64,000 nucleotides of DNA from Deltaproteobacteria bacterium (GCA_020635195.1 JACKAG010000006.1:4010-68009); one strand, 5' to 3'; positions 34,389-49,281 are shown, counted from the stretch's first letter. Numbers and translations: made by a program. The notes: generated from the letters alone by a model not told the origin.

Positions 34389-35444
34389 TCAGAGTTCAAT
34401 TTCAATGTCCTCAAGATCATCTTCAGAAGGAGCCGACGTTGATAATGTGCTACCGGAAGGCTGTGGAATCACAGGATGCTCCGACAAGAGTTGTCCGCTT
34501 GTTCGTTGAGTCATATCAGATCTTTTATAATGATCATTATCCTCATGTTTTTTAAATGCATCCAGAATACTTCGATATTGATTCATCCATATTCTGCTTT
34601 TTTTGAGTATTTCCATAAAAAATTCTTTATGATCATTTTCATTGTCAGATAACATGGTCTGACAAAGCTTATTAGCTTTATAAAACTGAAACGTCTGACA
34701 ATAGAGTCTGGTCTGTAACATCATTCGCTCTGTATTTAGTGTATTAAAAATACTTAATTTCTCTGCTATTTCAATCGCATCACAATAATAATTCTCTGAT
34801 CTGGCATATAATTTCATGAGATCCCAAGCCGCCCATAAGAGCGTGGGATCTTTTCTGAGTACGTTTTTCAAAATTTTTGAAGCATCTTTTGAACGGTTTA
34901 TATTCTGATATACATAGCTAGAAATTCGCTCGCAGCTCTGATTATTGGCAGATATGCGAAAATTTTTTATTAAAAATTCTATTTTTTTTATATCATTTTT
35001 TTTCATACAGTGATGAATTTCAGATTGATAATAGGACGACGATCCAATCATCTCATGATCATAGATAGCTTTGTTTACAAATGCTTTCAGATGACTCGCT
35101 CTCATTTTTCCTGAAAATATTTTTTCAATACCCAGTTCATTCAGAAGATTCAAAACAGCATCAGATGGTTGACCATCATCATCAAGAATAATAATTTTTC
35201 GACAGAGGACAGGATTACCTTTTGAAAGAGAGGGCAACAAGGACGATATATTCTGAAGACGATCCTGTGTCAGGACCACAGCATGAATATACTGATGATG
35301 GTCTGGAAGTTTCTCCGATGAAAGGAGATTGATTCCTGGTGTTTTTGAAAGGAACTGTGTGAAGGCAGGATATATTCCTTCAACAACAAATTTAATTGGA
35401 TTTTCTGCTATTGAGACATGAGTCTCATGCTCTGCATTCGTCAT
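34389..35444 (-). CDS. Hypothetical protein, possibly a pseudo-receiver plus TPR-like helical repeats
   Basis: 351 aa and AT-rich. HAVVLTQD...RKIIILDDDG...LGIEKIFSGKM...LKAFV follows the strand/helix order of a CheY-like fold without the canonical acidic pocket. The C-terminal half is helical, and the tail is acidic (EDDLEDIEIEL). Confidence 0.4.
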   Translation of the reverse strand: MTNAEHETHVSIAENPIKFVVEGIYPAFTQFLSKTPGINLLSSEKLPDHHQYIHAVVLTQDRLQNISSLLPSLSKGNPVLCRKIIILDDDGQPSDAVLNLLNELGIEKIFSGKMRASHLKAFVNKAIYDHEMIGSSSYYQSEIHHCMKKNDIKKIEFLIKNFRISANNQSCERISSYVYQNINRSKDASKILKNVLRKDPTLLWAAWDLMKLYARSENYYCDAIEIAEKLSIFNTLNTERMMLQTRLYCQTFQFYKANKLCQTMLSDNENDHKEFFMEILKKSRIWMNQYRSILDAFKKHEDNDHYKRSDMTQRTSGQLLSEHPVIPQPSGSTLSTSAPSEDDLEDIEIEL

Positions 35445-35968
35445 AAGGAAACCGTCATTTTCATATTTCTTTTCATGAGAAACTCCTGAAGATGACGATA
35501 AAAATTTGAATCCTTTAAATTTTTATAGATAATTTCAGATCGATCTGATGAATGATCAATCAGCCTTATAAAAACGTCTGAATCTTCCGGATAATTTTGT
35601 ATAAATTCTTTCATCTGAACCACATAGTAATGTTCAAGCCGAAGAAGTACTTTTGGATACTTATTGTTTCTGCTCCAGGGATGGAGCGTTTTTAAAATCC
35701 ACTCTGCCCTTTTTATCAATTTCTTCATGTCTGCATACGCTCTGCTCTGATCCGGATAGGGGATTCCATATTCAGATTCAGCACATATCAGAGACCAGCA
35801 TTCGTGAATTTGCTCCAGATCATCAATAATAATTGTATTGAGATCATTCCAGTGTTCTTTTCTCTCTGATGAAGGATCGATGTCTGCAAGCTGTGAATAA
35901 ATATTAGAAAAAACGATCAGAACCTGATAGATGCATTGTAAATCACCAAAATTTTGTTCTTGTGTCAT
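35441..35968 (-). CDS. Hypothetical helical protein
   Basis: 175 aa and AT-rich, with a 4-nt overlap with the downstream gene. No recognised domain. Confidence 0.45.
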   Translation of the reverse strand: MTQEQNFGDLQCIYQVLIVFSNIYSQLADIDPSSERKEHWNDLNTIIIDDLEQIHECWSLICAESEYGIPYPDQSRAYADMKKLIKRAEWILKTLHPWSRNNKYPKVLLRLEHYYVVQMKEFIQNYPEDSDVFIRLIDHSSDRSEIIYKNLKDSNFYRHLQEFLMKRNMKMTVSL

Positions 35969-36107
35969 CCAAAGCTTTCCTGATTTTTATTATATAAAAA
36001 TTTTTTATATTTTCCAGTCACTTACTATATAAATGTCATGTTTTGTCCATGATGATCCGATCCGAATGTCAGGATTTTTTTACACACCCCCATTATTTTA
36101 GCAGCTG

Positions 36108-37013
36108 ATGGAGTCAGGATCATTGGAAAAACTTACCTGGCACTCTCTAAAAGGAGGACAGGATGGTGCGAGTTTACTGGAATATCTCATTGCAATGACT
36201 ATTTTTTTGGTCGTTGTATTGGGACTTTTTTCAAATATGGATCATATTATCTATTCTGGAAAACTAAATGAAATTGCACCATCTGTTTATGAAAAGGATC
36301 AGGTTGTCCGCTATGAAATTATTACAACGATGGATTATTTTCAGAGAGAACTGATCATTAATGATTGTCCGGATCTTGACGGAGATCAGATACTGGATGA
36401 AAATGAAATTTTCTTCTGCACCAAACCTGCTGAAAAACTAAAGAACTCCCAGCAAAACTTCACCTTTCCACGAACGATCTACTGGGGAAACCACAATGAC
36501 TTATTTCAGGAGCCCTATGTTCGTAATATTATCAATCAGTTTGATACTCTTGTTGCGAGTATGACAGAAAAAAACTCCGGTAAACTTCATTCCTCCTTCA
36601 CGGAAGCTCTCAAATCATGTGAAAATCAATCCTTTAAGATGGATACAGAAGATATTGCAGACAGAAGCTCTTATTTTGTCTGTGGATTTGGAAAAAATAT
36701 TCTCGTTCAGATAAAAGTCAATTTCTGGGATTTTTTATCAGGATCATCTGCAAAGTGCAGGAATCTGAATGCCAAGCCAGGACGCGGACTTCAGGCTGTC
36801 TATCGATTTTTTCATATTGAGCCATATAAAGATGAAGGAAAGCAATTGTATCGTATTGCAATCCATAGTTCAAAATTATTTATCCCTAAAAAAGTAGATG
36901 CCCATTTTATTCCTTCGAGAAATCTGTGGAGTTCTGAATCTGACCCAAAAGATCATGATGGTGGGTCATCTTCTGATGGGAAACCCGATTATATGAAAAA
37001 CTGCAGATCTTAA
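36108..37013 (+). CDS. Prepilin/TadE-like protein (class III signal peptide)
   Basis: The N-terminus ...KGGQDG|ASLLEYLIAMTIFLVVVLGLF has Gly at -1, Glu at +5 and then a hydrophobic helix. It resembles the TadE N-terminal motif. At 301 aa it is unusually large for a pilin. Confidence 0.6.
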   Translation: MESGSLEKLTWHSLKGGQDGASLLEYLIAMTIFLVVVLGLFSNMDHIIYSGKLNEIAPSVYEKDQVVRYEIITTMDYFQRELIINDCPDLDGDQILDENEIFFCTKPAEKLKNSQQNFTFPRTIYWGNHNDLFQEPYVRNIINQFDTLVASMTEKNSGKLHSSFTEALKSCENQSFKMDTEDIADRSSYFVCGFGKNILVQIKVNFWDFLSGSSAKCRNLNAKPGRGLQAVYRFFHIEPYKDEGKQLYRIAIHSSKLFIPKKVDAHFIPSRNLWSSESDPKDHDGGSSSDGKPDYMKNCRS

Positions 37014-37024
37014 AGGATTTTTTC

Positions 37025-39733
37025 ATGTTTCGTTGTGTTCAACTGATCTCTGTCATGAAAGATATGGTACAGAAGATATCTGGGAATTCTGGCCAGACTC
37101 CTATGTTGCTTGTACTGATGCTAAGTGCACTTGGGGTCACAGTTGGCTCTGTTATGCAAAAATATATAGAAAACTCAAACTATGGTATCCGAATTGAGCA
37201 GGATGATCGTTATCTCAGACAGGGTTGCACCGAAGCAATGGAACAGCTGTCTCAGCTGCTCGGTTCCGGGGTTCTTAATATCAATGAACAAAGCATGCGT
37301 TTTGTTCCCAACAGCCATCTCCCATCATCAATTTCTTCAGAAATTGTCGGCGATCAGATCTCAGAATATCAAAGGGGAGGAAGAAACTGGAATCTTTCTT
37401 CTTCGGATGGCTCTGTGAAAGTACGAACCTGTGCGGAAGTAGAGATGAATGAAGGTGATATGTCCCAGATGATGATGAATACGGATCATACGATTCCGAA
37501 TCAACCATGCCAGCATTCCAGAATGACCGCAACGATCTGGCCTGAGAAAATCCTTGATCCTGTAGAAAACCCAGAATATGAACACCTTGTCTGGAAAAAA
37601 GCAGTAGTCAGGGCAAACTGTCAGATGGATTCCGATAAGAAGACACTGGAGAGCCGGGCACGGATTAACTTTCTTCCTCCCTCCCAGATCTGTAATTTTG
37701 AGAATGAAAAAACAAACCCCTACTGTAGTGTTGATCATTGCCGCTATATGATGCCTTTGATGGTTGAGAATCCGGAGCAAGGATCTTCCGAAAACCGGGG
37801 GGATGTTTATTTTCAGAAAGGGGACCAGTTATCAGAAGATATCAACTTAAAACTTGTGCCTAATCCATCTTATGTCGCAAAGATTAAGCTTCCGGTCCCA
37901 AGGAACATCCCAACCATTGCAGCGTATCGTAACTCAGAGGATGCCGCTGATCAACCACTGGAGCTGATCAGCTTTATTAAACAATCAATATGCGCAGGGC
38001 TTAACAATCCTTTTAAAGGTTATCAGGGTGTAGAAGGGACTTATGATATTGAGGATTATTTTTCGGGAGAGCGGGATGAAAATGGTTTCGTGGAGTTTGG
38101 AATACCGGCCTTTTCTCAGATAGATTCTGATGCAGGTCAACAAGCCCGAAGAGCCTTAACCTTTCAGGGTTACCTTTATTTTGATCGTAACACTGAGTTT
38201 TTTAGTAAAAATCCTGAGACTGGCGGAGGAGGGAGCCTTGCCAGAAACTGGGATACAGAGCTGCAACAACAGGACCCTGAGTATCACAAAAAATTATTAC
38301 ATAACGGCTGTGTGCGGACGGTTGGTGTGAGTGACGCAGATTTTTGCTCAAGGGTCAGACTAACTCATGCTTCATTTTCTTATACTTATCCAAGAAAACG
38401 ATTATGCCACTATAAAGGTCCTTCTTATGACCTGGTAAGCCATGATGAATATAAAAAAATTCTTTCTGAGTTACGTCCGGATCTTGATGTCAGTCGTCTT
38501 TATAAATGGGAAGAAAGTGATCTGTCTCTGATCCCCGAATCATCAGAATGGCGTGATACCAATTATCAACAGACAGGAATTTTTCCTCTTGCAGGGGCTG
38601 AGTCCATTCAGACATACGAAGATCCTCAAATATTTTTTCATCATACAGCAACAGAAACATCATCCTTATCAAAGGAATCCGCAAAAGTTCCTCATGATTT
38701 TAGTGGTGTAATCGAATCGTCCATTGATGCTATCGAGGTCCGGAGTGTCACTGAATCATACCAGAAGATCTGTTCTCAGACAGATGAATCATCCGGACAA
38801 TGTCTGCAATGGGAGGCCGGGGAAAAGCTGACAGATGCAGAAAAAATTGCATTACCGGATGCTGACATGATCACTCAGACCAAACTGAAAGAACGTCAGG
38901 TTATCTTACAATGGAAAGCTGACTGTAGCGAAGTCATCGATACAATTCCCGGAGAAAGCATCGAGATTCAACCTGAAGCTATGGCGTTATGTAACTACAG
39001 AGAAACTCCTGTTCGTCCTGTTGTAGAGAAAAAATTTGATCGTTGTTATTACATTGCTTATTACAACAGTGAAAATCGTCTGGGCTGTACGGTAAATTCG
39101 CCATCTGCTGTAGGTGCAAATCCTTATATATGTCGGAACTCTAATGGCTGTTTTGCCAGAGGAACACCTGTTCTGATGGCGGATGGTCAGAGCAAAGCTG
39201 TGGAGCAGATTGTACAAGGAGACTTTGTCCGGAACCCTGTCACAGGACAATCTTCAAGAGTTTCCGCGGTGACGGTTGGACCTCAGCAGAAACCCATGTT
39301 GCGAATTTTTTACGGAGAAGGAAAAAAACTGGAATCCACATGGAATCATCCGTTTCTGACTCCTGAAGGACTGATGAGAGCGGATCAGTTATCTCCTGGT
39401 CAGAAACTACTATTTTTGGGGGATCATTTGTATTTTACGTCTGTGACCAGGATAGAAGAAATCCCTCTGGATTCAGAGCGTCTGGTCTGGAACCTGCTTC
39501 TTGAAAAAGATGAACTTTCAACATATTCCGATATCAACGGCTCTTTTTCAGAAGATTTCATGAAGATCAAAGATCTTCAGCAACATGTCTTTATTGCAAA
39601 TGGTGTTGTAACCGGGGATTATCACATTCAGAGCCTTGAAAATTTTGAAGAAGTTGCCAAATGGTTTCGCCCAGGAGAGAACTTTCCAGAAGCTGCATCA
39701 GACAATGAGGCTTCGGGAAGGCCGGACAGATGA
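37025..39733 (+). CDS. Large Cys-rich pilin-like (TadG/GspK-style, no Glu+5) protein with a C-terminal Hint domain
   Basis: N-terminus KISGNSG|QTPMLLVLMLSALGVTVGSV. About 20 Cys residues lie in the 700-aa middle region. The C-terminal Hint blocks are CFARGTPVLMADG (Cys709), TWNHPFL (TxxH), VWNLLLE and HVFIANGVVTGD. Confidence 0.7.
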   Translation: MFRCVQLISVMKDMVQKISGNSGQTPMLLVLMLSALGVTVGSVMQKYIENSNYGIRIEQDDRYLRQGCTEAMEQLSQLLGSGVLNINEQSMRFVPNSHLPSSISSEIVGDQISEYQRGGRNWNLSSSDGSVKVRTCAEVEMNEGDMSQMMMNTDHTIPNQPCQHSRMTATIWPEKILDPVENPEYEHLVWKKAVVRANCQMDSDKKTLESRARINFLPPSQICNFENEKTNPYCSVDHCRYMMPLMVENPEQGSSENRGDVYFQKGDQLSEDINLKLVPNPSYVAKIKLPVPRNIPTIAAYRNSEDAADQPLELISFIKQSICAGLNNPFKGYQGVEGTYDIEDYFSGERDENGFVEFGIPAFSQIDSDAGQQARRALTFQGYLYFDRNTEFFSKNPETGGGGSLARNWDTELQQQDPEYHKKLLHNGCVRTVGVSDADFCSRVRLTHASFSYTYPRKRLCHYKGPSYDLVSHDEYKKILSELRPDLDVSRLYKWEESDLSLIPESSEWRDTNYQQTGIFPLAGAESIQTYEDPQIFFHHTATETSSLSKESAKVPHDFSGVIESSIDAIEVRSVTESYQKICSQTDESSGQCLQWEAGEKLTDAEKIALPDADMITQTKLKERQVILQWKADCSEVIDTIPGESIEIQPEAMALCNYRETPVRPVVEKKFDRCYYIAYYNSENRLGCTVNSPSAVGANPYICRNSNGCFARGTPVLMADGQSKAVEQIVQGDFVRNPVTGQSSRVSAVTVGPQQKPMLRIFYGEGKKLESTWNHPFLTPEGLMRADQLSPGQKLLFLGDHLYFTSVTRIEEIPLDSERLVWNLLLEKDELSTYSDINGSFSEDFMKIKDLQQHVFIANGVVTGDYHIQSLENFEEVAKWFRPGENFPEAASDNEASGRPDR
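39149..39619 (+). other. Hint (Hedgehog/intein-like) autoprocessing domain, residues about 709-865 of the 902-aa protein
   Basis: Block A is G|CFARGTPVLMADGQSKAVEQIVQGDFV. Block B is STWNHPFLTPEGLMRADQLSPGQKL. Blocks F/G are RLVWNLLLE...HVFIANGVVTGD. The usual terminal His-Asn plus downstream nucleophile is absent (GD-Y instead). Confidence 0.7.
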
Positions 39734-40650
39734 GCAGAATACGAAGTCGTGTGATCATAAGAAAAAGGCAGAGAAAAAATACCCGATGGTCCATGGAGAG
39801 CGGTGTAAGCTTGCTGGAAATGATCATCGTAATCGGTCTGATGGGTCTGCTTCTGTCTCTGAGCACGGCTGTCTATGTCAATCTCGATCTTTTTACAGGA
39901 CGCTACAAATCCAGGCTCTCCGCAAGAAACGAAGCTCTGCAATTGATTGCTATGATCAGAAGACGTTATAACATTGATCTGATAAAAGAAGATGACCCGG
40001 CAAGGAAAGTGGGGAGTAAGTCAGAGCGTATTGAAGGGAAAATAATGGATAAGTCTGGTGATATGATCCAGGGAGTTCTGAGTGTGATTAATACGATTTC
40101 CACCGTGTCGGAAAATAAATCCGTTGATCTGATGACAATCACGAATGGTTGCGTTGAGTTACCGGATCACCTGAAAAATCAGATTCCCATGTTTAATCAG
40201 GATTATTTTCATGTAGTTTTTGATCAGCTCAGAGTCAGTGATTCATATTCAGATGCGTCTTCATCTCCAGGAATTACTGATTTTGCTACGGTTCAGACGA
40301 CCTGCGAGGAGTATCTTCAGGGATTTCAGTGCGGCTATAATTCAGTTCCTTTTATTTCTTTTGATGATGGCAAAAGAGGACTTCAGATCCCTGCTGATAT
40401 GACAAAAAAGGCACGTTTTACATCTGTCCGGGAAAGCGCTGTAGCAGCCTTTATCTGTGATACAGAATCGTTTGGCGAAGCAGATCTCAGATTATTCAAA
40501 GATATTACGGTCTTTATTGCAACATTTGATATGTCGAAAAAAAATCATCCGGACCCTGCAAAACGACTTCACTGGCAAAAATTCAGGAGTATCTTTTCGG
40601 TTTCCTCTCCTTCTGAAAATGTCGAGTTTATTTCAGACAAGGGTCTGTAG
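39730..40650 (+). CDS. Type IV pilin/pseudopilin-like protein
   Basis: MESG|VSLLEMIIVIGLMGLLLSLSTAVYV is a classical N-methylation-type motif with Glu+5. The start is either the ATG at 39730 (ATGA overlap with the Hint gene stop, giving a long basic leader) or the ATG at 39793 (leader MESG). Confidence 0.65.
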   Translation: MSRIRSRVIIRKRQRKNTRWSMESGVSLLEMIIVIGLMGLLLSLSTAVYVNLDLFTGRYKSRLSARNEALQLIAMIRRRYNIDLIKEDDPARKVGSKSERIEGKIMDKSGDMIQGVLSVINTISTVSENKSVDLMTITNGCVELPDHLKNQIPMFNQDYFHVVFDQLRVSDSYSDASSSPGITDFATVQTTCEEYLQGFQCGYNSVPFISFDDGKRGLQIPADMTKKARFTSVRESAVAAFICDTESFGEADLRLFKDITVFIATFDMSKKNHPDPAKRLHWQKFRSIFSVSSPSENVEFISDKGL

Positions 40651-40789
40651 CGCTTACCTGAAAGATCGTCCTGACTTATCCTGAAAAATTTTTATGTTAA
40701 ATTTGCACTCTTCGGTCTGTTTTTAAACAAAAAAGTCATATTTTATTTGTATTTTCCGATGCTCATATAGAGGTTTTTAAGGAGATGAT

Positions 40790-42634
40790 ATGGGCATATC
40801 GGGAGTTGTGAAAGTTTCATCGCATCATGCGATCCCTGATGCACAGACTTTTACTGATATTATCTCGCCATCACAGCCTTTTCTTCTGGCGGAGAATGTG
40901 ACAGAGCGATTTCCTTTCCAGCCGGAGTTGCCTGCTTCACATCCTGCGCTGAAATCCGATTATCTGATTCTGAAGTCTATGAAAGGCTCCTTATTTTTTG
41001 CTTCAGAATCCTTTCGTGATGAAAGCTTATACCTGAAGATGGTGATAGAAAAAAATCGTGAACTGGCCTCTATACTGCGCTATAGCAAATTTATGGAATA
41101 TCACAAAATCGTTGAGGAGCGGCTCTTGCGGCATCTCTTCCAGGAGCATTTACGGAAGACAGCAGAAAAATTTGAGAAAAGGGCTGTCAAGGTTCATCAG
41201 CAAAAGGATTTATTTACAGAGCTCCGCCAGACATCATCTGATATAAGAAGAGAACTCTTTTCTTTTTTATTATCGATCCGGGATGACAGCAGACAGGATT
41301 ATCATCGGATGTTCTGGGATGCGGTCCGGAAGAATCTTGAGCAGGAGCCGTCAGCTGTTATTTTATCATCAACAAATTTACAAGAACTTCTGACGGGTTT
41401 TCGCTATGAGGAAAGTGAGGGATCTCTGCTAAGGGCTATTTTTCTCCTGAAAGAGAATCAGCTGAGAGCCAGGGCCTCTCAGATTCTCGAACATGTATCA
41501 GGGCTTTCCTTGCCAGCAGCGTTGCATCCTCTTTTCAGGCTCCACTTTCACAGACAGAGTTTTGAAAAAGAACTTCAGACTGAACTTAGCAAGAAAAGGT
41601 CTGACGTTTTTATGAAAAACCTTGCAACATCATCACTTCGTTCTCACTTTCGTCAGTTCTTATCTGATCAGAGCCTTTCTGTAGCCTCTGAGGGAGTTCC
41701 GCTGAGCTTACGGCCTCAGACATGGACATCTTATGCGACTCCCGAAAATCAACAAGGCAATATGCGGGCAATATCAGGAGGGTCTGAACCTTATACACAG
41801 ATCTCATCATTGCAGAATAAGATCTCTCAGATTCCTTCAAAAGGAAGCATAGCACCATTGTTTTTAGCACTTGGTTTTTTTCCGGAAAAAACAGAATTTA
41901 CTTCACCTGAAGCATCTGTCATATCTTTGCAGAATATCCCGCCAGCTATGGTGACCACACATATCAGCAAGGACCAGGCCGGAACGCTTTTCCCTCCCAC
42001 AGACCTGCTCCCAAAAACCCAAACAGAAAGGATACATTCAGATTCTGATCAGTCTGTGTCAGGATTTTATATTCAGTCTTTCCTGACTCCGGCAGAGCAG
42101 AGCTTTTTATCCCGCTCTCTTCCTTCAAAAGACAGGCATCTTTATCGATTTGAAGCCGTATACCTCCTGCAAACATCCACAAATATTATAAAACAACCAG
42201 CGGTCTTAAGCTGGAACTCAGGAGAAGCAAGAGATCTCGAACAAAAGGCTCAGATCAGTATGGAAGTACGTCCTGATATCGGACATTCAAAAGAGAACAC
42301 AGAGCCTATGAAGGATCCGTTTACTCAGGAGAGAAGAGTCGATCACAACCGCAATTATCCACAGCAATTCAGAGTGATTACAGAACATGATCTGGCATTT
42401 TTCGGAAATCCTGTGATGACATCAGAACTGAGCCGAACCTCTGTTTTTCTGAAGCACTACAGTCAGACTGAGAACCCTCCGGACTCCTTTGAAAACAAGG
42501 TAATTCGTGCAGGGCAGATAAAAAAATCATCTCATTCAACAGAAACAGCCCCCTTCGTATCTTTGAAGGGATCAGAGAAGCCAGAAATCCCTGTTTTTAC
42601 CCGTGACAATTTTTCTAAACCCCGAAAAGACTGA
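40790..42634 (+). CDS. Hypothetical 614-aa protein, last gene of the pilin/Hint cluster
   Basis: Strong RBS (AAGGAG) upstream of the ATG. No signal peptide or TM segment. The N-terminal third is helical and the C-terminal half is Ser/Pro/Thr/Gln-rich. No recognised domain. Confidence 0.6.
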   Translation: MGISGVVKVSSHHAIPDAQTFTDIISPSQPFLLAENVTERFPFQPELPASHPALKSDYLILKSMKGSLFFASESFRDESLYLKMVIEKNRELASILRYSKFMEYHKIVEERLLRHLFQEHLRKTAEKFEKRAVKVHQQKDLFTELRQTSSDIRRELFSFLLSIRDDSRQDYHRMFWDAVRKNLEQEPSAVILSSTNLQELLTGFRYEESEGSLLRAIFLLKENQLRARASQILEHVSGLSLPAALHPLFRLHFHRQSFEKELQTELSKKRSDVFMKNLATSSLRSHFRQFLSDQSLSVASEGVPLSLRPQTWTSYATPENQQGNMRAISGGSEPYTQISSLQNKISQIPSKGSIAPLFLALGFFPEKTEFTSPEASVISLQNIPPAMVTTHISKDQAGTLFPPTDLLPKTQTERIHSDSDQSVSGFYIQSFLTPAEQSFLSRSLPSKDRHLYRFEAVYLLQTSTNIIKQPAVLSWNSGEARDLEQKAQISMEVRPDIGHSKENTEPMKDPFTQERRVDHNRNYPQQFRVITEHDLAFFGNPVMTSELSRTSVFLKHYSQTENPPDSFENKVIRAGQIKKSSHSTETAPFVSLKGSEKPEIPVFTRDNFSKPRKD

Positions 42635-42821
42635 CCACTGAAAAAAAAATCTCATGCAGCCTGCTGATTTAATAAAAAGAACGAAGAGTCTCTTGTATTG
42701 ACTCATCGGGACAGACTGCTAAGATTCTGCCTGCACTGAGTCTGTATTCTTCTGGATCTGAAGGCTTCAAACAGAACCTCAGAGGCTTCTGAAGAACTGA
42801 GTAAACTAATCAGGGTGGATT

Positions 42822-44450
42822 ATGTCAGATAAAAAAATTCCCGATCCGGAAGATATTCAGAGAGAATTTGAGGACTTCGTTCAAAAACGTTTTGGCAAAA
42901 ATATTCAGGTTTTTGCTCAGGAGTTGCCCTCCTCTTTTCTTTCGAAAGAAAAAACAGAACCGGAGGAAAAAAACGATCTTCAGGAAGAAAAGAAACTGGA
43001 TGAGAAAATTTTTTCCTTTAATATGAAACCCAAAGATCTGAAAGAGCAACTGGATCGCTTTATTATCGGACAGGATGAAGCCAGAAAAGCGCTGTCGATT
43101 GCTGTCTGTGATCACTATAATCAGGTGTCTTTGCATCATCGTCATCCGGATCTGGATGATCATGCCTATTATGCGAAACAGAATGTTCTGGTTCTTGGCC
43201 CTACTGGTGTTGGAAAAACCTGCATGATCCGGCATATCGCTGAAATGGTAGGAGTTCCTTTTGTCAAGGCAGATGCAACCCGCTTCTCTGAAACGGGTTA
43301 TATGGGAGCCAATGTTGATGATCTGATCCGGGATCTGGTGACTCAGGCAGATGGAAATATTCAGCTGGCTCAGTATGGCATTGTTTATCTTGATGAAGTC
43401 GACAAACTGGCTCAGGCGCCCGGCCATGTCGGAAGAGATGTAAGCGGCAGGGGAGTACAGCTGGGGCTGCTTAAGCTGATGGAAGATACAGATATCGATC
43501 TCAGGGCAGCCCATGATCCTGCATCTCAGATGCAGATTTTTATGGAGATGCAGCAAAAAGGGAAGGTCGAAAAACAGCTGATCAGTACCCGTCATATTCT
43601 TTTTATTGTAAGTGGAGCTTTTACCGGACTTGAGACGATCGTCAGTAAACGGCTAAACCGATCCTCAATCGGCTTCGATCAGGCAGCAAAAGAAACTATA
43701 GATCGCTATGAGCTACTTGCAGAGGCCATGACCGAGGACTTTGTTCTTTATGGATTTGAGCCGGAGTTTGTTGGTCGGCTTCCGGTCCGGGTCGCCTGTC
43801 ATCCTCTGGATGAGGAAAAACTCTTTGAAATTCTGAAACACTCAGAAGGATCGATTATCAGACAATATAAGCAGGCATTCCATAGCTATGGAATTCATCT
43901 TAGCTTTGAAGATGCCGCACTCAGGGAGATTGCCAGGCAAGCATCCCGGGAAGAAACCGGAGCCCGGTCATTGATGACGATCTGTGAAAAAATCTTCCGT
44001 TGTTTTAAATATGAATTACCATCTTCCTCAATACAGGAACTGGTGGTTTCAGAAGATGTCGTCCGGGACCCTGCCGGGTCTTTGCAGCGCCTGCTCAGAG
44101 ATGCCCCGCAGACAGATCCTGTCGACATTCGTGAGATCCGTCTCTTTGAGGAAAATTTTTTCCGGAAGTACCGGATGAAGATATGCTTTTCACCTGAAGC
44201 TCGCAATCTGATTTGCCAGTCGGCACAGACAAAGCATGTTGGGATTGGACAGTTCTGTCAGAATCTTCTGGAAAATTATGAACATGCTCTGATGCTGATA
44301 AGCCAGAAGACCGGAGTCAATGAGTTTATTCTTAAAGAAGATGTCGTCAGAGATCCGCAACAGGCTCTGGAAGTGATGGTCCGGGAATCCTGCATCCAGA
44401 GCTCTTCCGATCAATCCGAGAAAAGAGAACCGCAAAGCCCTGTTCTCTGA
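42822..44450 (+). CDS. ClpX-like AAA+ unfoldase paralog lacking the N-terminal zinc-binding domain
   Basis: Motifs LDRFIIGQDEARKAL, Walker A GPTGVGKT, pore loop GYMG, Walker B IVYLDEVDK, RDVSGRGVQLGLLKLMEDT, an IGF tripeptide (SSIGFDQ) and sensor-2 GARSL. There is no Cys cluster in the first 80 aa. An extra C-terminal segment of about 130 aa is present. Confidence 0.8.
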   Translation: MSDKKIPDPEDIQREFEDFVQKRFGKNIQVFAQELPSSFLSKEKTEPEEKNDLQEEKKLDEKIFSFNMKPKDLKEQLDRFIIGQDEARKALSIAVCDHYNQVSLHHRHPDLDDHAYYAKQNVLVLGPTGVGKTCMIRHIAEMVGVPFVKADATRFSETGYMGANVDDLIRDLVTQADGNIQLAQYGIVYLDEVDKLAQAPGHVGRDVSGRGVQLGLLKLMEDTDIDLRAAHDPASQMQIFMEMQQKGKVEKQLISTRHILFIVSGAFTGLETIVSKRLNRSSIGFDQAAKETIDRYELLAEAMTEDFVLYGFEPEFVGRLPVRVACHPLDEEKLFEILKHSEGSIIRQYKQAFHSYGIHLSFEDAALREIARQASREETGARSLMTICEKIFRCFKYELPSSSIQELVVSEDVVRDPAGSLQRLLRDAPQTDPVDIREIRLFEENFFRKYRMKICFSPEARNLICQSAQTKHVGIGQFCQNLLENYEHALMLISQKTGVNEFILKEDVVRDPQQALEVMVRESCIQSSSDQSEKREPQSPVL

Positions 44451-44596: not shown

Positions 44597-45100
44597 ATGC
44601 TTATATCTGAGGTTCTGGAATTGGGACATCTGAAGGTTGTGATCAGAGAACAGGAAGGACGTGCCAGATATACCCTGGCAGGCGATGTGGATGAGGCCAT
44701 CTCGCAGGAGAGCTTTCCCGCAACAGATCTCAATGAGGTGATCCTTGATCTTTCCGGGATCATGAGCTTCAATTCCTGCGGTTTGAGAGAGTGGATTCGC
44801 TGGATTCAGATCTTTTCCTCTCATCATAAAGTTTACTTTGAGAACTGCTCTGTACCCACCATTGATCAGATGAATATGATGCCTCAGACTATGGGGAAAG
44901 GGACTGTTCTGTCTTTTTATGCTCCTTATTATTGTGAAACCTGTGGAGAAGTCAATCAGCTGGTTCTTATGGATCGCTACGCTGAAATGCTCCGGCAGAA
45001 AAAAGCTCCGGACTTTTCTTGTGAAACCTGTGGTGATGTTCTCTGTTTTGATGCGCTGGCAGCGAGTTATTTTTTATTTGCAGACAGTCGCGCAGGATGA
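44597..45100 (+). CDS. STAS-like domain protein with a C-terminal CxxC...CxxC zinc ribbon
   Basis: ILDLSGIMSFNSCGLREWIRWI is typical of STAS / anti-sigma-antagonist folds. It is followed by CETCGEV...CETCGDV. The gene lies directly upstream of cheA. Confidence 0.5.
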   Translation: MLISEVLELGHLKVVIREQEGRARYTLAGDVDEAISQESFPATDLNEVILDLSGIMSFNSCGLREWIRWIQIFSSHHKVYFENCSVPTIDQMNMMPQTMGKGTVLSFYAPYYCETCGEVNQLVLMDRYAEMLRQKKAPDFSCETCGDVLCFDALAASYFLFADSRAG

Positions 45101-45150
45101 ATATAGCAAAGAAATATTGACCGGATCAGAAAGACGATAATGGAGATGGG

Positions 45151-47544
45151 ATGATGGGAATGGATGCACTCACACAAAAGGCTTTTGAAGCACTGGTGAA
45201 AGACATTCTTCCCAGACTTGCTTCTCATCTGAGTTCTCTGGAAGCTCTGGCTCCAGAATCACGGGAATCTGATAATGACTGTCGTTTTCTGATCAGGGAA
45301 GCCTCTGAGCTATTAAAGCTCATGGATAAATGGAGTCAGAGTTCTGCTAAAACAGATCTGCCAGAGCACGATATTTCCGAAATTCCGGAAACATCGACTC
45401 AGGAAGAATATCCGGCCGATTCTGTCACAGAAGAGTCCGATCCTTCGGCAGAAATGAGTGATGATGAAGCCCGCAGATTGCTGGCAATGATGGATGGAAC
45501 TGACTCATCTCCGCCAACTCCTGCCAAAAATCACTGTGATTCCAGCTCTGACATGAGTGATGAAGAAGCTATGGCCGCACTGGCTGCGATGGACAGCCCG
45601 GTGCAGGAGTCCTCCTCTGACAGCGGAGACGAAGACGATGATGCAGCTCTGAAAATGCTGGCCCGACTTGAAGAAGAGGCCGAAGGCACCCCCGGCGCAA
45701 CCCAGGACTCACAGGAGCCCTCAGCAACAACAGGAAGCGCGCCTGCTTTTACTGATGAGATAGTAGAAGAAGTTGAAGAATTCGGAGAGAGTGAATTTAG
45801 CTCAGATCCTGATATGATCCAGGATTTTATCACCAATGCTGATGAACTCATGGAAAATCTGGATACACAAGTTCTGGCTCTTGAAAAATCACCGACAAGT
45901 CAGGAAATCATCAACGAAATTTTTCGCTCTGCCCATACCCTGAAAGGGGCTGCTGGTATGTTTGCATTCCGTGCGATTGAACGGATTATGCACCGGATGG
46001 AGAACTATTTTGATCAGATCAGTAAGGGCAAACAAACGGTAAGTGGGGCTGCTGTTGACGTGCTTTTTAGCGCAATGGATATTCTGAGACATCTGATTGA
46101 TGGAGTCAGAAATGGCAAACCCACGGGTCGCCAGACTGCTCAGATTGTTCATCAGCTTAACCAGCTTTGTGCAGGAACATTAATATCATCCTCTGCCAGC
46201 CATGCATCTTCCCCTAAGGAAAAAGAAGAAGAACAGGCGACAGAAAATCCAGCAGATGACACAGCAAAAAAGCAAAAGCAGTCGACAATCCGGGTTGATC
46301 TTCAACGGCTTGATGCTCTTGTGAATCTGGTAGGGGAGCTGGTGATTGACAGAACACGTTTTATGAGTATTGAAGAACAGCTCAGAATAAAAGGACCTCA
46401 TCCGAACCTTGCCGGAAATATGTCAGAAACAGTTCAGCTTTTTGGGCGCCATATGAATGAAGTCCAGGACATTATTATGAAAGTCAGGATGGTCCCTATC
46501 GGAAATGCTTTTAATAAATATACGAGGATTGTCCGTGATCTGTCCAGGAGCCTTGGAAAAGAAATTGACCTGATTATTGACGGAGAGCACACAGAGCTGG
46601 ATAAAACGATTGTGGAAGAAATCGGTGATCCTCTGATCCATCTGATCCGTAACTCAGTCGATCATGGAATAGAACTTCCTGAAGACAGGGTTTCAGCAGG
46701 CAAAAAATCGCGAGGAAAAATTATGCTTGCCGCTCGTCAGGAAGGAAACCAGATTATGATCACGATTGAGGACGACGGAAAAGGTATGGCTAAGGAGAAA
46801 ATTCGTCAGAAGGGCATAGAAAAAGGTCTGATTAAAGAAGATGATAATTTAAGCGATCGTGATATTTTCAGTCTGATTTTTGAGCCTGGATTTTCGACGG
46901 CTGATCAGGTCACCAATATTTCCGGTCGTGGTGTTGGGATGGATGTTGTAAAGCGACAGATTCTGAAATTAAAAGGAAATATTGACATCCATTCTGAAGC
47001 TGGCGTTGGTACAAGCATTTCAATTCAGTTACCACTGACTCTGGCTATTGTACAGAGCTTACTTGTTAAATCAAAAGAAGATGTCTTTGCGATCCCTCTG
47101 AGTACTGTTGTGGAATCGATCCGGATTAAACCGTCGGATCTGCAACGGGTCGGGGACTCTGAGGTCATCAGACGTCGCAACAGAGTGCTTCCTCTGTTTC
47201 ATCTTCATGATGTTCTGGATCTGGATCAGAAAGCAAATCACTTCTGGTATCAGTCCCCTGAACATGAGCACTCACATGGTCGCAGGAAAAAAAACAAAGT
47301 CTATGAAGAGCGTTTATTTGTCGTGGTTGTCGGGACAGCAGAAAGAAGATTTGGCCTGATCGTAGATTCCCTCTTAAATCAACAGGAAATGGTGATTAAG
47401 TCGATGGGAAATCTGATGGCAGATATTCCCTGCGTTGCAGGAGGAGCGATCCTTGGGAACGGAGAAGTGGTGCTGGTTCTGGATATTGTCGAAATGGAAA
47501 GTTATTTTCGTCATAAAGTCCGGGGAATTCAGCAAGTCGCATAA
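45151..47544 (+). CDS. cheA: Chemotaxis histidine kinase CheA (P1-P3-P4-P5, no P2, long acidic N-terminal extension)
   Basis: HPt motif FRSAHTLKGAAGMF (His262). P3 is IRVDLQRLDALVNLVGELVI. The N box is HLIRNSVDHGIE, G1 is EDDGKGM, the F box is FEPGFST and G2 is GRGVGMDVV. A CheW-like P5 forms the C-terminus. Confidence 0.9.
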   Translation: MMGMDALTQKAFEALVKDILPRLASHLSSLEALAPESRESDNDCRFLIREASELLKLMDKWSQSSAKTDLPEHDISEIPETSTQEEYPADSVTEESDPSAEMSDDEARRLLAMMDGTDSSPPTPAKNHCDSSSDMSDEEAMAALAAMDSPVQESSSDSGDEDDDAALKMLARLEEEAEGTPGATQDSQEPSATTGSAPAFTDEIVEEVEEFGESEFSSDPDMIQDFITNADELMENLDTQVLALEKSPTSQEIINEIFRSAHTLKGAAGMFAFRAIERIMHRMENYFDQISKGKQTVSGAAVDVLFSAMDILRHLIDGVRNGKPTGRQTAQIVHQLNQLCAGTLISSSASHASSPKEKEEEQATENPADDTAKKQKQSTIRVDLQRLDALVNLVGELVIDRTRFMSIEEQLRIKGPHPNLAGNMSETVQLFGRHMNEVQDIIMKVRMVPIGNAFNKYTRIVRDLSRSLGKEIDLIIDGEHTELDKTIVEEIGDPLIHLIRNSVDHGIELPEDRVSAGKKSRGKIMLAARQEGNQIMITIEDDGKGMAKEKIRQKGIEKGLIKEDDNLSDRDIFSLIFEPGFSTADQVTNISGRGVGMDVVKRQILKLKGNIDIHSEAGVGTSISIQLPLTLAIVQSLLVKSKEDVFAIPLSTVVESIRIKPSDLQRVGDSEVIRRRNRVLPLFHLHDVLDLDQKANHFWYQSPEHEHSHGRRKKNKVYEERLFVVVVGTAERRFGLIVDSLLNQQEMVIKSMGNLMADIPCVAGGAILGNGEVVLVLDIVEMESYFRHKVRGIQQVA

Positions 47545-47558
47545 CATGAGGGGCAGCT

Positions 47559-49269: not shown

Positions 49270-49281
49270 AGAAAGGTCACA

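What the first reader, a model, noticed from the sequence alone, without database searches (positions are those of the whole stretch)
36108..42634. Orphan pilin-like operon built around a 902-aa pilin-like protein that ends in a Hint domain
Three consecutive plus-strand ORFs, separated by 11 nt and by a 4-nt overlap, carry class-III-signal-like N-termini.
- ORF1: QDG|ASLLEYLIAMTIFLVVVLGLF, TadE-like with Glu+5.
- ORF2: NSG|QTPMLLVLMLSALGVTVGSV, without Glu+5, as in GspK/TadG-type minor pilins.
- ORF3: MESG|VSLLEMIIVIGLMGLLL, a classical N-methylation motif with Glu+5.

All three are far larger than structural pilins (301, 902 and 306 aa). ORF2 has a Cys-rich ectodomain of about 700 aa and a C-terminal Hedgehog/intein-type domain. 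A 614-aa protein with no recognisable domain follows, preceded by a strong RBS.

No assembly ATPase, platform protein, secretin or prepilin peptidase lies within the window, so this looks like a minor-pilin or tip-complex cassette serving a machine encoded elsewhere. I do not know of a described pilus or pseudopilus subunit that carries a Hint autoprocessing module. A pilus-presented ectodomain that is self-cleaved, or transferred to a nucleophile, would be a new mechanism for surface display or cargo release.
Basis: partly seen in the sequence, partly recalled or inferred. Interest (0 to 1): 0.88.

Follow-up and report, generated by a model that had tools for sequence, protein, structure and literature searches.

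The report
Tip pilin carrying self-cleaving Hint domain
A conserved three-gene set in a little-studied relative of predatory bacteria encodes pilus-tip-like proteins, and the largest one ends in a self-cleaving "Hint" module; nobody has characterised this combination, which could point to a new way of maturing or attaching a pilus tip.

Summary
ORF1 (36108-37013), ORF2 (37025-39733) and ORF3 (39730-40650) are real, co-directional and tightly spaced.

- **Pilin-like N-termini.** ORF1 and ORF3 carry prepilin-type N-termini (Gly-1, Glu+5, uncharged hydrophobic helix). ORF2 carries the Glu5-less variant typical of the cap subunit of minor-pilin tip complexes.
- **Hint domain.** ORF2 ends in a genuine Hint fold. 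The family profile matches bacterial intein-like (BIL) structures best.
- **Catalytic motifs.** The Gly-Cys-Phe junction and the TxxH motif are (near-)invariant. There is no C-terminal Asn and no +1 nucleophile. That predicts cleavage or transfer at Gly708|Cys709 (77.5 + 21.8 kDa), not splicing.
- **Conservation.** Seven other distinct loci show the same rule: two Glu5 pilin-like genes plus one Glu5-less protein with a C-terminal Hint. Their flanks are unrelated, and no assembly machinery lies nearby. Named sources are Oligoflexales, including cultured Pseudobacteriovorax antillogorgiicola.
- **Corrections.** ORF4 is not part of the unit. "TadE-like" is unsupported. The 660-aa ectodomain matches no solved fold.

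Modular pilins are known, and BIL domains were reported in predatory bacteria. N_methyl-PT-HINT appears once, uncommented, in a published table. No function has been assigned, so I rate this a new variant of known kinds. Pilus assembly and autoprocessing are inferred, not shown.

The parts
36108..37013 (+). ORF1, a 301-aa minor-pilin-like protein (NCBI aa from 36123). Leader MESGSLEKLTWHSLKGGQDG, predicted cleavage after Gly20, then ASLLE(+5)YLIAMTIFLVVVLGLF.
   Evidence: One search gives the ORF. One search shows the motif is unique in the window. Pfam N_methyl is below threshold (E 0.021), and the same is seen in the orthologue. Orthologues flank the Hint gene in L002, L004, L005, L006 and L008. 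The family profile hits pilin N-termini in the PDB (E 1.2e-3). hhalign against the ORF3 family gives 92% probability over the N-terminal 63 columns only.
37025..37159 (+). ORF2 residues 1-45: polar leader ending in Gly23, then a 20-residue uncharged hydrophobic segment with no Glu at +5 (cap-subunit or GspK-type prepilin-like N-terminus).
   Evidence: Gly23 is nearly invariant in 30 relatives and in the set of 13. '[EQ][RKQS]G|hydrophobic' recurs in about 59 of the 150 best Hint-profile hits. The models show a continuous helix up to residue 81, followed by a beta-sheet. hhalign puts it in register with the ORF3 family, but weakly (E 0.0072, probability 5%).
37160..39004 (+). ORF2 residues 46-660: Cys-rich ectodomain, mostly beta, with no recognisable family or fold.
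   Evidence: Pfam and NCBIfam give no hit. AlphaFold gives pLDDT about 72-74 and pTM 0.58. Foldseek against the PDB finds nothing at E <= 1e-3. Conserved Cys: C136, C162, C223, C234, C239, C429, C441, C461. The domain is shared without a Hint by P0022.
39005..39148 (+). ORF2 residues 661-708: conserved pre-Hint Cys motif (C674-Y-Y..Y679...C688...C703-R-N-x-N-G708), ending at the predicted scissile Gly708.
   Evidence: C674, Y676, Y679, C688, C703, R704, N705 and G708 are invariant or nearly so. This segment is 51% identical to P0002, against 41% for the ectodomain. The profile also matches this segment in many otherwise unrelated Hint proteins.
39149..39619 (+). ORF2 residues 709-865: BIL-type Hint domain. 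It has Cys709 (position 1), Thr772-x-x-His775 (block B), His854, and the terminal motif ANGVVTGD865 in place of the intein motif '...VHN'.
   Evidence: Foldseek: Tetrahymena BIL2 6y75 E 5.7e-9 (TM 0.77), gp41-1 intein TM 0.87, Clostridium thermocellum BIL 2lwy TM 0.82, Hedgehog 1at0 TM 0.78. Sequence against the PDB: E 1.7e-6. Family profile against the PDB: BIL2 6.8e-14 and 2lwy 1.3e-13, above all inteins. G708, P776 and D865 are invariant and C709, F710, T714, H775 and Q869 nearly invariant across 30 full-length relatives; G-C-F, T714, H775, P776, D865 and Q869 are invariant in the 30 C-terminal regions.
39620..39733 (+). ORF2 residues 866-902 plus the stop codon: short, poorly conserved tail (YHIQ..., then a weak amphipathic 'F..F/W' motif). 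It is not a toxin domain.
   Evidence: 26% identity to P0002. Tails run 8-55 aa across the family. The 'F..F[LM]' motif is semi-conserved.
39730..40650 (+). ORF3, a 306-aa minor-pilin-like protein. Predicted cleavage after Gly25, then VSLLE(+5)MIIVIGLMGLLLSLS. Its start overlaps the ORF2 stop by 4 nt.
   Evidence: Gly25 and Glu30 are invariant in six orthologues. The profile hits 21 solved type IV pilins (best E 2.6e-6). Pfam N_methyl E 0.0039 and TIGR02532 E 0.029 are both below threshold. NCBI names the P. antillogorgiicola orthologue WP_132318265.1 'prepilin-type N-terminal cleavage/methylation domain-containing protein'.

Best explanation
ORF1-ORF3 form a self-contained minor-pilin cassette of an Oligoflexia-type bacterium (phylum Bdellovibrionota). 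A type IV filament machine (T4P, T2SS or Tad class, undetermined) encoded elsewhere in the genome would use it.

Proposed steps:
1. All three proteins insert into the inner membrane through a class III signal peptide. A prepilin peptidase trims them after Gly20, Gly23 and Gly25.
2. The two Glu5-bearing subunits (ORF1, ORF3) and the Glu5-less ORF2 assemble through their N-terminal helices into the complex that primes and caps the filament. ORF2 sits on top, as GspK/PilK-type subunits do.
3. ORF2 is a modular pilin. A pilin-like stalk carries a 660-aa disulfide-rich ectodomain of unknown fold, probably the binding module, and a C-terminal BIL-type Hint domain.
4. The Hint domain performs an N-S acyl shift at Gly708-Cys709. 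The resulting thioester is resolved by water or by another nucleophile.
5. That sheds the 21.8-kDa Hint-plus-tail fragment. The 77.5-kDa ectodomain stays on the filament, ending in Gly708, either free or carrying an adduct.

Protein splicing is not expected, because the C-terminal Asn and the +1 Cys/Ser/Thr are both missing.

Shown here: the gene unit and its conservation, the prepilin-type motifs, the Hint fold, and the conserved catalytic residues. Inferred: peptidase processing, incorporation into a filament, tip position, actual cleavage, and the identity of the nucleophile.
For: - **Unit.** The rule 'two Glu5 pilin-like genes plus one Glu5-less gene with a C-terminal Hint' holds in the window and in L002/L003, L004, L005, L006, L008, L009/L010 and L011. 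Gene order varies and the flanks are unrelated.
- **Prepilin motifs.** They are unique in the window. Gly-1 and Glu+5 are invariant in the ORF3 family. Profiles hit solved pilins. NCBI annotates an orthologue as prepilin-type.
- **Cap subunit.** The review PMC10191384 states that minor pilins form a tip-located complex capped by a subunit lacking Glu5, and that modular minor pilins carry grafted domains.
- **Hint.** G708, P776 and D865 are invariant and C709, F710, H775 and Q869 nearly so in the full-length relatives; all of these are invariant in the C-terminal regions.
- **Selection.** The Hint and pre-Hint segments are the best-conserved parts of the protein: 27-51% identity against 21-41% for the ectodomain in 12 relatives, higher in every one. 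That argues for selection on activity.
- **Register.** The motif HVFIANGVVTGD lines up with the 'H-x-F-x-A-N-G-x-x-V-H-N' end of BIL2 and inteins, so Asp865 takes the place of the terminal Asn (plus my recollection of the Ssp DnaB intein sequence).
- **Cysteines.** There are 18 Cys upstream of Cys709. An even number is compatible with a fully disulfide-bonded periplasmic domain and a free catalytic Cys.
Against: - No assembly ATPase, platform protein, secretin or prepilin peptidase lies in the 64-kb window or within 10 kb of any related cassette, so the link to a filament is circumstantial.
- All Pfam and NCBIfam prepilin hits in the window are below the curated thresholds.
- The N-terminus of ORF2 lacks Glu5 and could be a plain signal anchor. 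hhalign support for a pilin-like N-terminus is weak (probability 5%).
- The ectodomain model matches no pilin, GspK or PilY1 structure.
- One relative, P0160 in L007, has no pilin-like neighbours.
- The same Hint type also sits on lipoprotein-type proteins, so its role is not specific to pili.
- No experimental data on cleavage exist for this family. I could not read the 2009 paper on BIL domains of predatory bacteria.
Confidence: 0.55

Rival explanations
1. The proteins are envelope proteins unrelated to any filament. ORF2's N-terminus would be an ordinary Sec signal anchor. The three proteins would form a membrane-anchored periplasmic or surface complex, and the Hint domain would be a general maturation module of envelope proteins in this phylum.
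For: The same C-terminal Hint occurs on about 17 lipobox proteins among the 150 best hits. No filament machinery lies near any cassette. ORF2 has no Glu5 and no fold match to pilins.
Against: ORF1 and ORF3 families keep Gly-1 and Glu+5, and their profiles match solved pilins. A Gly immediately before the hydrophobic segment, preceded by [EQ][RKQS], is near-invariant in ORF2 relatives. That is a prepilin-peptidase-site feature, not a Sec feature. The Hint protein is linked to two Glu5 pilin-like genes in seven other loci.
Confidence: 0.15
2. The cassette is a pilus or pseudopilus tip complex, but the Hint domain is catalytically silent. It would serve as a structural, binding or docking module and stay attached.
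For: ORF2 itself scores below threshold for every Pfam Hint family. The intein-type terminal His-Asn is replaced by Gly-Asp. No cleavage data exist.
Against: The residues needed for the first step (Gly-1, Cys1, Thr-x-x-His) are (near-)invariant in the full-length relatives and invariant in the 30 C-terminal regions. Inactive Hint relatives usually lose Cys1 (general knowledge of the superfamily). The Hint is more conserved than the ectodomain.
Confidence: 0.15
3. ORF2 is a polymorphic-toxin-type protein. A pretoxin Hint (PT-HINT) would release a C-terminal toxin, and the downstream gene would be its immunity protein.
For: The orthologue P0002 passes the Pfam PT-HINT threshold. One PDB hit, 8w20, is a 1368-aa protein with an internal Hint.
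Against: Only 37 poorly conserved residues follow the Hint here, and 8-55 across the family. That is too short for a toxin domain. The downstream gene ORF3 is a conserved pilin-like protein, not a variable immunity gene. No Rhs, T6SS or CDI delivery domains were found.
Confidence: 0.03
4. The Hint is a true intein or a mobile-element remnant that splices out to join the ectodomain to the tail.
For: Inteins are among the structural matches. From memory, A-type BIL domains can splice without a +1 nucleophile, and some inteins use a C-terminal Asp. The invariant Asp865 could allow C-terminal cleavage.
Against: There is no homing endonuclease, no +1 Cys/Ser/Thr (the residue is Tyr, Phe or Leu) and no terminal Asn. 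The location is the extreme C-terminus of a non-housekeeping protein. The position is conserved across orthologues of about 20-40% identity.
Confidence: 0.07

Closest known systems
GspK / PilK-type cap subunit of the H-I-J-K minor-pilin tip complex (T2SS and T4aP)
   Same: It has a prepilin-like leader ending in Gly and no Glu5. It is the largest subunit of the set. It is encoded next to Glu5-bearing minor pilins. By analogy it should sit at the tip (for the rule).
   Different: It has no T2SSK or other GspK/PilX profile match and no structural match. It is about three times larger than typical GspK proteins (size from memory). It has only two partner pilins in most loci, no adjacent machinery genes, and a Hint domain at its end.
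Modular type IV pilins (Streptococcus sanguinis PilB and PilC; survey of Raynaud et al. 2021, PMC8179133)
   Same: A pilin module carries grafted non-pilin modules and is predicted to be exposed at the tip. The survey's Dataset S1 even lists 'IPR012902 - PF07591 (PT-HINT)' once among 1219 proteins.
   Different: The known examples carry binding modules (vWA, lectin) or peptidases. No autoprocessing module has been discussed or tested. Most members of this family escape the IPR012902 signature because they lack Glu5.
Bacterial intein-like (BIL) domains: Clostridium thermocellum BIL (2lwy), Tetrahymena BIL2 (6y75), and the 'C-type BIL' domains reported from Bdellovibrio bacteriovorus (Dori-Bachash et al. 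2009, PMID 19153786)
   Same: These are the best sequence-profile and structure matches. They share the lack of a +1 nucleophile and the presence in non-conserved secreted or envelope proteins. C-type BILs were described in predatory bacteria of the same phylum, together with a companion domain, PPS-1.
   Different: The terminal Asn is replaced by an invariant Asp. I could not read the 2009 paper, so identity with the C-type class and with PPS-1 is untested. A link of BIL domains to pilin-like N-termini or minor-pilin operons was not found in any paper I could search.
Hedgehog C-terminal autoprocessing (Hog/Hint) domain
   Same: Both have a Gly-Cys-Phe cleavage site, a Hint at the C-terminal end of a secreted signalling or binding domain, and a short extra segment after the Hint. 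The structural match has TM 0.78. In Hedgehog the chemistry releases the N-terminal domain with a C-terminal adduct (described in PMC5874633).
   Different: The sequence relationship is more distant than to BILs. The tail is 37 aa and not conserved, so a sterol- or adduct-recognition region is unproven. The host is a bacterium and the carrier is pilin-like.
PT-HINT of polymorphic toxins (Pfam PF07591)
   Same: It is the only Pfam Hint family whose threshold an orthologue passes.
   Different: No toxin domain follows the Hint and no immunity-like gene follows the ORF.
PilY1/PilC tip adhesins of T4aP
   Same: Both are large proteins presented on top of the minor-pilin complex. The ectodomain probably plays an adhesin role.
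   Different: PilY1 is not a pilin and has a C-terminal beta-propeller (IPR008707). ORF2 has its own pilin-like helix and matches no PilY1 profile or structure.

Membership tests
Type IV pilin / class III signal peptide (Pfam N_methyl PF07963, TIGR02532) | Short polar leader ending in Gly (or Ala) directly before the hydrophobic segment | tested here: met
   ORF1 Gly20, ORF2 Gly23 and ORF3 Gly25. The Gly is invariant in the ORF3 family and nearly invariant in ORF2 relatives.
Type IV pilin / class III signal peptide (Pfam N_methyl PF07963, TIGR02532) | Glu at position +5 of the mature protein | tested here: met
   Met for ORF1 (E25) and ORF3 (E30, invariant). It is also met in the flanking genes of L004, L005, L006, L008, L009 and L011. 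ORF2 does not meet it, as expected for a cap subunit.
Type IV pilin / class III signal peptide (Pfam N_methyl PF07963, TIGR02532) | Score above the curated profile threshold | tested here: not met
   N_methyl scores 14.9 bits (ORF1) and 17.2 bits (ORF3) against a cut-off of 21.2. TIGR02532 scores 14.2 against 16.3. Family profiles nevertheless hit solved pilins at E 2.6e-6 and 1.2e-3.
Type IV pilin / class III signal peptide (Pfam N_methyl PF07963, TIGR02532) | Long N-terminal alpha-helix packed on a beta-sheet (pilin fold) | tested here: inconclusive
   The ORF2 models show a helix up to residue 81, followed by strands 84-216, but no Foldseek match to a pilin.
Type IV pilin / class III signal peptide (Pfam N_methyl PF07963, TIGR02532) | Cleavage and N-methylation by a prepilin peptidase, and assembly by a type IV filament machine | not testable with these tools
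   No peptidase or machinery gene lies in the window or within 10 kb of any cassette. The rest of the genome was not available.
GspK/PilK-type cap minor pilin | Prepilin-like N-terminus lacking Glu5, encoded with Glu5-bearing minor pilins | tested here: met
   The rule is stated in PMC10191384.
GspK/PilK-type cap minor pilin | Homology of the globular part to GspK (Pfam T2SSK) or a structural match | tested here: not met
   No Pfam or NCBIfam hit. No Foldseek hit at E <= 1e-3 for residues 1-708.
TadE/TadF pseudopilins (Pfam TadE) | Match to the TadE-like N-terminal profile | tested here: not met
   The Pfam scan at E <= 1 returned only N_methyl and DUF4844 for ORF1.
Hint superfamily | Hint fold | tested here: met
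   Foldseek returned 58 PDB matches at E <= 0.001; all 50 listed are Hint domains, with TM 0.7-0.87 for the best ones.
Hint superfamily | Nucleophile at position 1 and the block B Thr-x-x-His motif | tested here: met
   Cys709, Thr772 and His775 are present. C709 and H775 are nearly invariant in the full-length relatives and invariant in the C-terminal regions.
Intein | C-terminal Asn plus a +1 Cys/Ser/Thr, and insertion in a conserved host protein | tested here: not met
   The terminus is Gly864-Asp865 and the +1 residue is Tyr, Phe or Leu. The position is the C-terminal end of a lineage-specific protein.
Bacterial intein-like (BIL) domains | Closer to BIL than to intein or Hedgehog Hints; no +1 nucleophile; found in variable secreted or surface proteins | tested here: met
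   The family profile gives BIL2 at 6.8e-14 and C. thermocellum BIL at 1.3e-13; the best individual intein (PhoCDC21-1 intein, 6rpq) reaches 9.8e-8 and Hedgehog about 1e-3. Foldseek rank 1 is BIL2.
C-type BIL of predatory bacteria (Dori-Bachash et al. 2009) | The C-type sequence motifs and the associated PPS-1 domain | not testable with these tools
   The paper is not held. Only its citation and a one-line summary were available. The shared phylum and the C-terminal location are a lead, not a test.
PT-HINT polymorphic toxin | Pfam PF07591 above threshold | tested here: inconclusive
   ORF2 scores 14.7 bits against a cut-off of 27.7, while its orthologue P0002 scores 34.9 bits.
PT-HINT polymorphic toxin | A toxin domain after the Hint, with a downstream immunity gene | tested here: not met
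   The tail is 37 aa and 26% conserved. The downstream gene is a conserved pilin-like protein.
Hedgehog-type autoprocessing (Hog) | Gly-Cys-Phe junction and a C-terminal Hint that releases the N-terminal domain | tested here: met
   G708-C709-F710 is invariant in the 30 C-terminal regions. The match to 1at0 has TM 0.78. Release itself has not been shown.
Hedgehog-type autoprocessing (Hog) | An adduct- or sterol-recognition region after the Hint, and transfer to a lipid | not testable with these tools
   A short tail with a weak 'F..F' motif exists. Its function is unknown.

The most novel reading that the evidence does not exclude
The Hint domain is not just a removable propeptide. It would arm the filament tip with a thioester. 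An amine or hydroxyl on a target then attacks the Gly708-Cys709 thioester. The target could be a prey or host surface molecule, the cell's own peptidoglycan or outer membrane, or another pilus subunit. The attack would ligate the tip ectodomain covalently to that target while releasing the Hint. This would be a Hedgehog-like transfer reaction used as a 'covalent grappling hook' or anchoring step for type IV filaments. More widely, it could apply to envelope proteins of Bdellovibrionota, which carry the same module on lipoproteins.
Probability: 0.12. Interest if true: 0.9.

Novelty: new variant of a known kind. Interest (0 to 1): 0.64.

Why it matters
Type IV filaments gain functions by grafting modules onto tip subunits, but an autoprocessing module has never been studied in that setting.

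This work defines a conserved family: at least 19 clusters at 50% identity with E <= 1e-30, and dozens more pilin-like proteins with the same Hint. It gives the exact predicted scissile bond and the catalytic residues. It also names a cultured carrier, Pseudobacteriovorax antillogorgiicola (WP_132318263/65/67).

Two questions become directly testable:
- What are BIL/Hint domains for in bacteria? This has been open since their discovery.
- How do predatory or host-associated Bdellovibrionota build the adhesive tip of their pili?

If the thioester is passed to a target molecule, it would be a new mode of covalent surface attachment and a new protein-ligation tool.

Tried and rejected
- **Word-indexed homologue search.** The search for homologous proteins found only self plus one relative for ORF2, and only two proteins for the Hint profile. 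It was not useful. The exhaustive representative search was the productive one.
- **Genome scan.** It gave one locus, L003, which is the same organism as L002.
- **Foldseek of the Hint-less ORF2 model (residues 1-708).** No hit reached E <= 1e-3. The best rows (phage portal, FBPase) have probability of at most 0.44 and were rejected as noise.
- **Promoter and terminator scan of 35800-42900.** Counts did not exceed the shuffles, so it was not used.
- **ORF4 as a fourth member.** Rejected, because it is not conserved beside any other cassette.
- **Divergent upstream genes (34389-35968, minus strand).** They are homologous in L002 but absent beside the other cassettes, so the match was read as plain synteny between close relatives.
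- **Toxin/immunity reading and true-intein reading.** Both considered and rejected (see the rival explanations).
- **The 2009 C-type BIL paper.** It could not be retrieved. Searches for 'C-type BIL', 'PPS-1' and 'BIL domain' plus 'predatory' gave only a secondary one-line mention.
- **A Cys703-Cys709 'redox trap'.** Considered only as a lead. C703 is conserved in the close family but not across the wider Hint subfamily, and the model coordinates could not be inspected.
- **Other copies in the window.** tblastn found no second Hint or ectodomain copy.

Full report
**1. The observation**

The four plus-strand ORFs are present exactly as described: 36108-37013 (301 aa), 37025-39733 (902 aa), 39730-40650 (306 aa) and 40790-42634 (614 aa). 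ORF1 and ORF2 are 11 nt apart. ORF2 and ORF3 overlap by 4 nt. A 139-nt gap precedes ORF4.

The quoted N-termini are correct. I scanned all 93 six-frame ORFs of at least 100 aa in the window. Only ORF1 and ORF3 carry 'Gly, four residues, Glu, then 15 uncharged hydrophobic residues' in the first 60 aa. Only ORF2 and one succinate-dehydrogenase membrane subunit carry the Glu-less form. The clustering of three such N-termini in consecutive genes is therefore not a chance pattern.

NCBI annotates all four products as hypothetical proteins: H6618_05250 to H6618_05265, from a 'MAG: Deltaproteobacteria bacterium'.

**2. Profile evidence**

Pfam N_methyl matches ORF1 (E 0.021) and ORF3 (E 0.0039) at the expected place, but below the gathering score. 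NCBIfam gives similar sub-threshold N-terminal matches to ComGE, GspI, GspH and TIGR02532. No TadE match appeared for ORF1.

ORF2 residues 708-777 give weak matches to Hom_end_hint (E 5.6e-5) and Vint. ORF4 and the two divergent upstream genes have no convincing family.

Scanning the remaining ORFs of at least 150 aa found no type IV filament ATPase, platform protein, secretin or prepilin peptidase in the 64 kb.

**3. Relatives and the gene unit**

The word-indexed search found only one relative, P0002 (39% identity). Its contig, L002, is the same as L003, from 'MAG: Oligoflexales bacterium DT_79'. It is syntenic and encodes orthologues of ORF1, ORF2 and ORF3 at 38-43% identity, with the same N-terminal motifs. 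It has no ORF4 orthologue.

An exhaustive profile search of 1.84 billion representatives gave 2421 hits at E <= 1e-3, mostly Hint-only, and 19 at E <= 1e-30. Among the best hits, eleven complete relatives of 775-858 aa (P0003-P0008, P0011-P0013, P0019, P0020) all begin with a polar leader, then Gly, then a hydrophobic segment without Glu5; P0017 is similar with a less hydrophobic segment. All twelve end with a Hint domain and a short tail. One of them, P0004, is WP_132318267.1 of the cultured Pseudobacteriovorax antillogorgiicola (Bdellovibrionota, Oligoflexia). It is named only 'Hint domain-containing protein'.

Gene neighbourhoods:

| Locus | Gene order |
|---|---|
| L004 | ORF1-like, ORF3-like, Hint protein |
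| L005, L006, L008 | ORF1-like, Hint protein, ORF3-like |
| L009/L010 | Hint protein, then two GFT..E pilins |
| L011 | two Glu5 pilins, one other gene, then the Hint protein |

In every case the partners carry Gly-1 and Glu+5, for example GFSLIE, GFTIIE, GFTLAE and GYTLIE, while the Hint protein lacks Glu5. The flanks differ completely between loci, and none contains filament machinery. Only L007 has a lone Hint protein.

The functional unit is therefore the three-gene set, and ORF4 is a neighbour.

**4. Are these pilins?**

In the ORF3 family, Gly25 and Glu30 are invariant. Its profile hits the N-terminal helix of 21 solved type IV pilins (best E 2.6e-6). The ORF1 family reaches E 1.2e-3. 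The two families resemble each other only in the first 63 columns (hhalign probability 92%). NCBI names the P. antillogorgiicola ORF3 orthologue a prepilin-type N-terminal cleavage/methylation domain protein.

For ORF2 the evidence is:
- the near-invariant Gly23;
- the recurrent '[EQ][RKQS]-Gly' site;
- the operon partners;
- a modelled helix running to residue 81, followed by a beta-sheet.

Profile-profile support is weak. A Foldseek search of the Hint-less model found nothing at E <= 1e-3.

A recent review states that essential minor pilins form a tip-located complex capped by a subunit lacking Glu5, and that modular minor pilins carry grafted domains (PMC10191384). ORF2 fits that description by motif and context, but not by demonstrable homology to GspK.

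**5. The Hint domain**

- **Sequence search.** The C-terminal 209 aa match the Tetrahymena BIL2 domain (6tmm/6y75) at E 1.7e-6. Cys709 aligns to the mutated Cys1 of the crystal construct.
- **Full-length model.** It has pLDDT 74 and pTM 0.58, with about 90 over much of the Hint. Foldseek gives 58 PDB matches at E <= 0.001; the 50 listed are all Hint domains, including BIL2 (E 5.7e-9, TM 0.77), gp41-1 intein (TM 0.87), Clostridium thermocellum BIL (TM 0.82) and Hedgehog 1at0 (TM 0.78).
- **Family profile.** A profile of 30 family Hints ranks BIL2 (6.8e-14) and the C. thermocellum BIL (1.3e-13) above every intein and above Hedgehog.
- **Pfam.** The orthologue P0002 passes the PT-HINT threshold.
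- **Conserved residues.** G708, P776 and D865 are invariant and C709, F710, T714, H775 and Q869 nearly invariant in the 30 full-length relatives; in the 30 aligned C-terminal regions G708, C709, F710, T714, H775, P776, D865 and Q869 are all invariant. Thr772-x-x-His775 is the block B motif.
- **C-terminal end.** The strand HVFIANGVVTGD is in register with the 'HNFFANGVL...' end of BIL2. It also matches the 'HNFVANDIIVHN' end of the Ssp DnaB intein as I remember it. Asp865 therefore replaces the terminal Asn. The next residue is Tyr, Phe or Leu.
- **Tail.** It is 37 aa here and 8-55 aa in the family. It is poorly conserved apart from a weak 'F..F' motif.
- **Relative conservation.** The Hint and the 48-residue Cys motif before it are better conserved than the ectodomain in all 12 relatives checked.

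**6. Mechanism**

The chemistry that the conserved residues allow is the first step shared by all Hint domains: an N-S acyl shift at Gly708-Cys709. The thioester is then resolved by water or by another nucleophile.

Canonical splicing is excluded, because there is no +1 nucleophile and no terminal Asn. The invariant Asp865 leaves open a slow C-terminal cleavage or a BIL-A-type ligation. I give that low weight.

The predicted products are 77.5 kDa (residues 24-708) and 21.8 kDa (residues 709-902). There are 18 Cys upstream of Cys709. That is compatible with a disulfide-bonded periplasmic or extracellular domain and a free catalytic Cys.

Because the N-fragment keeps the pilin-like helix, cleavage would leave the ectodomain on the filament tip and discard the Hint. 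What the cell gains is not determinable here. It could be a folding or quality-control propeptide, timed unmasking of a surface, or transfer of the activated C-terminus to an acceptor. I favour simple self-cleavage and treat covalent transfer as the most novel reading that remains open.

**7. Wider picture**

Of the 150 best Hint-profile hits:
- about 59 have the Glu5-less pilin-like N-terminus;
- 5 have a Glu5 form, including a canonical GFSLPE pilin (P0148) and TadE-like forms (P0057, P0092, P0150);
- about 17 have lipoprotein signal peptides.

This BIL-type Hint with a '[ST]-G-D-x-x-Q' end is therefore a common C-terminal module of envelope proteins in this lineage. Minor-pilin cap subunits are its most frequent carriers. 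P0022 shows that the ORF2 ectodomain also exists without the Hint.

**8. Comparison with the literature**

BIL domains of predatory bacteria ('C-type BIL', with a PPS-1 domain) were reported for Bdellovibrio bacteriovorus in 2009 (PMID 19153786). I saw only the citation and a one-line summary and could not read the paper. Membership in that class is likely but untested.

Modular pilins are an established concept (PMC8179133). That paper's Dataset S1 lists 'IPR012902 - PF07591' once among 1219 proteins and 264 architectures, and its main text never mentions Hint or intein.

Full-text searches found no paper that describes a Hint domain on a pilin. The terms tried were 'Hint domain' with 'minor pilin', 'type IV pil' and 'pseudopilin', 'bacterial intein-like' with 'pilin', and 'PT-HINT' with 'pilin'.

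**9. Verdict**

The corrections are listed above.

The finding is a new variant of known kinds: a modular cap minor pilin combined with a BIL-type Hint. It is not categorically new. It is an uncharacterised, conserved family that can be tested experimentally. Function as a filament subunit and actual autoprocessing remain inferences.

Noticed in passing
window 475-12531 (-): Ten co-directional ORFs of 155-860 aa. Only one has a Pfam match: 8090-9238, TrbI/VirB10-like (E 2e-8, just under the gathering score). This may be a very divergent type IV secretion or conjugation-like cluster.
   Followed up: no
window 50441-50971 (+) and 55891-56646 (+): Two ankyrin-repeat proteins (Ank_2 E 9e-13 and 8e-66). 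These are unusual for free-living bacteria and suggest interaction with a eukaryotic host or prey, in line with reports on Oligoflexales.
   Followed up: no
window 40790-42634 (+): ORF4 (614 aa) has no family match and is not conserved beside the cassette in any related locus. It is an orphan gene of this lineage, with only one near-identical cluster member elsewhere.
   Followed up: partly
window 42822-44450 (+): A ClpX-like AAA+ protein of 542 aa scores just under the NCBIfam ClpX cut-offs (342.5 against 359). It has about 125 extra C-terminal residues.
   Followed up: no
window 17597-21283 (+): A 1228-aa ORF with no Pfam match at E <= 1e-4.
   Followed up: no
window 44597-50397 and 56747-59065: Chemotaxis and flagellar-type genes lie downstream of the cassette: CheA (45151-47544), CheW (47559-48134), a ParA/MinD-like ATPase (48427-49269) and FapA (56747-59065, minus strand). 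An MCP lies upstream at 15574-17394 (minus strand).
   Followed up: no
window 34389-35968 (-): Two divergently transcribed genes of unknown function (175 aa, and 351 aa that is weakly TPR-like) sit in the lowest-GC stretch of the window (0.354). They are homologous and syntenic in L002 (24-27% identity) but absent beside the other cassettes.
   Followed up: partly
proteins P0043, P0058, P0061, P0064, P0069, P0070 and others: The same BIL-type C-terminal Hint ('[ST]GD..Q' end) is attached to lipoprotein-signal proteins of 300-460 aa. The module therefore serves envelope proteins in general, not only pilin-like ones.
   Followed up: partly
protein P0022 (1357 aa; ENA contig of 6 kb): This paralogue has the ORF2-type leader and the first 500 aa or so of the ectodomain, then a different long C-terminal region and no Hint.
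   Followed up: no
L006 9000-9260: A run of N (an assembly gap) removes the start of the ORF1-like gene. Translation just after the gap reads EGG|TSLIEMMMAFAILG, so this orthologue also has the Gly/Glu5 motif, although the gene call starts later.
   Followed up: yes
L007 (Oligoflexales MAG GCA_045106415.1), 10001-12352: The ORF2 relative P0160 stands alone, without pilin-like neighbours. A DDE transposase gene lies 4 kb upstream, so the locus may have been rearranged.
   Followed up: no
protein P0015 (199 aa, on a 2.44-Mb ENA contig): This gene call holds only the pre-Hint motif plus the Hint. It is either a truncated or frameshifted copy, or a mis-called start, in an almost complete genome. 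That genome could be used for a census of filament machinery.
   Followed up: no
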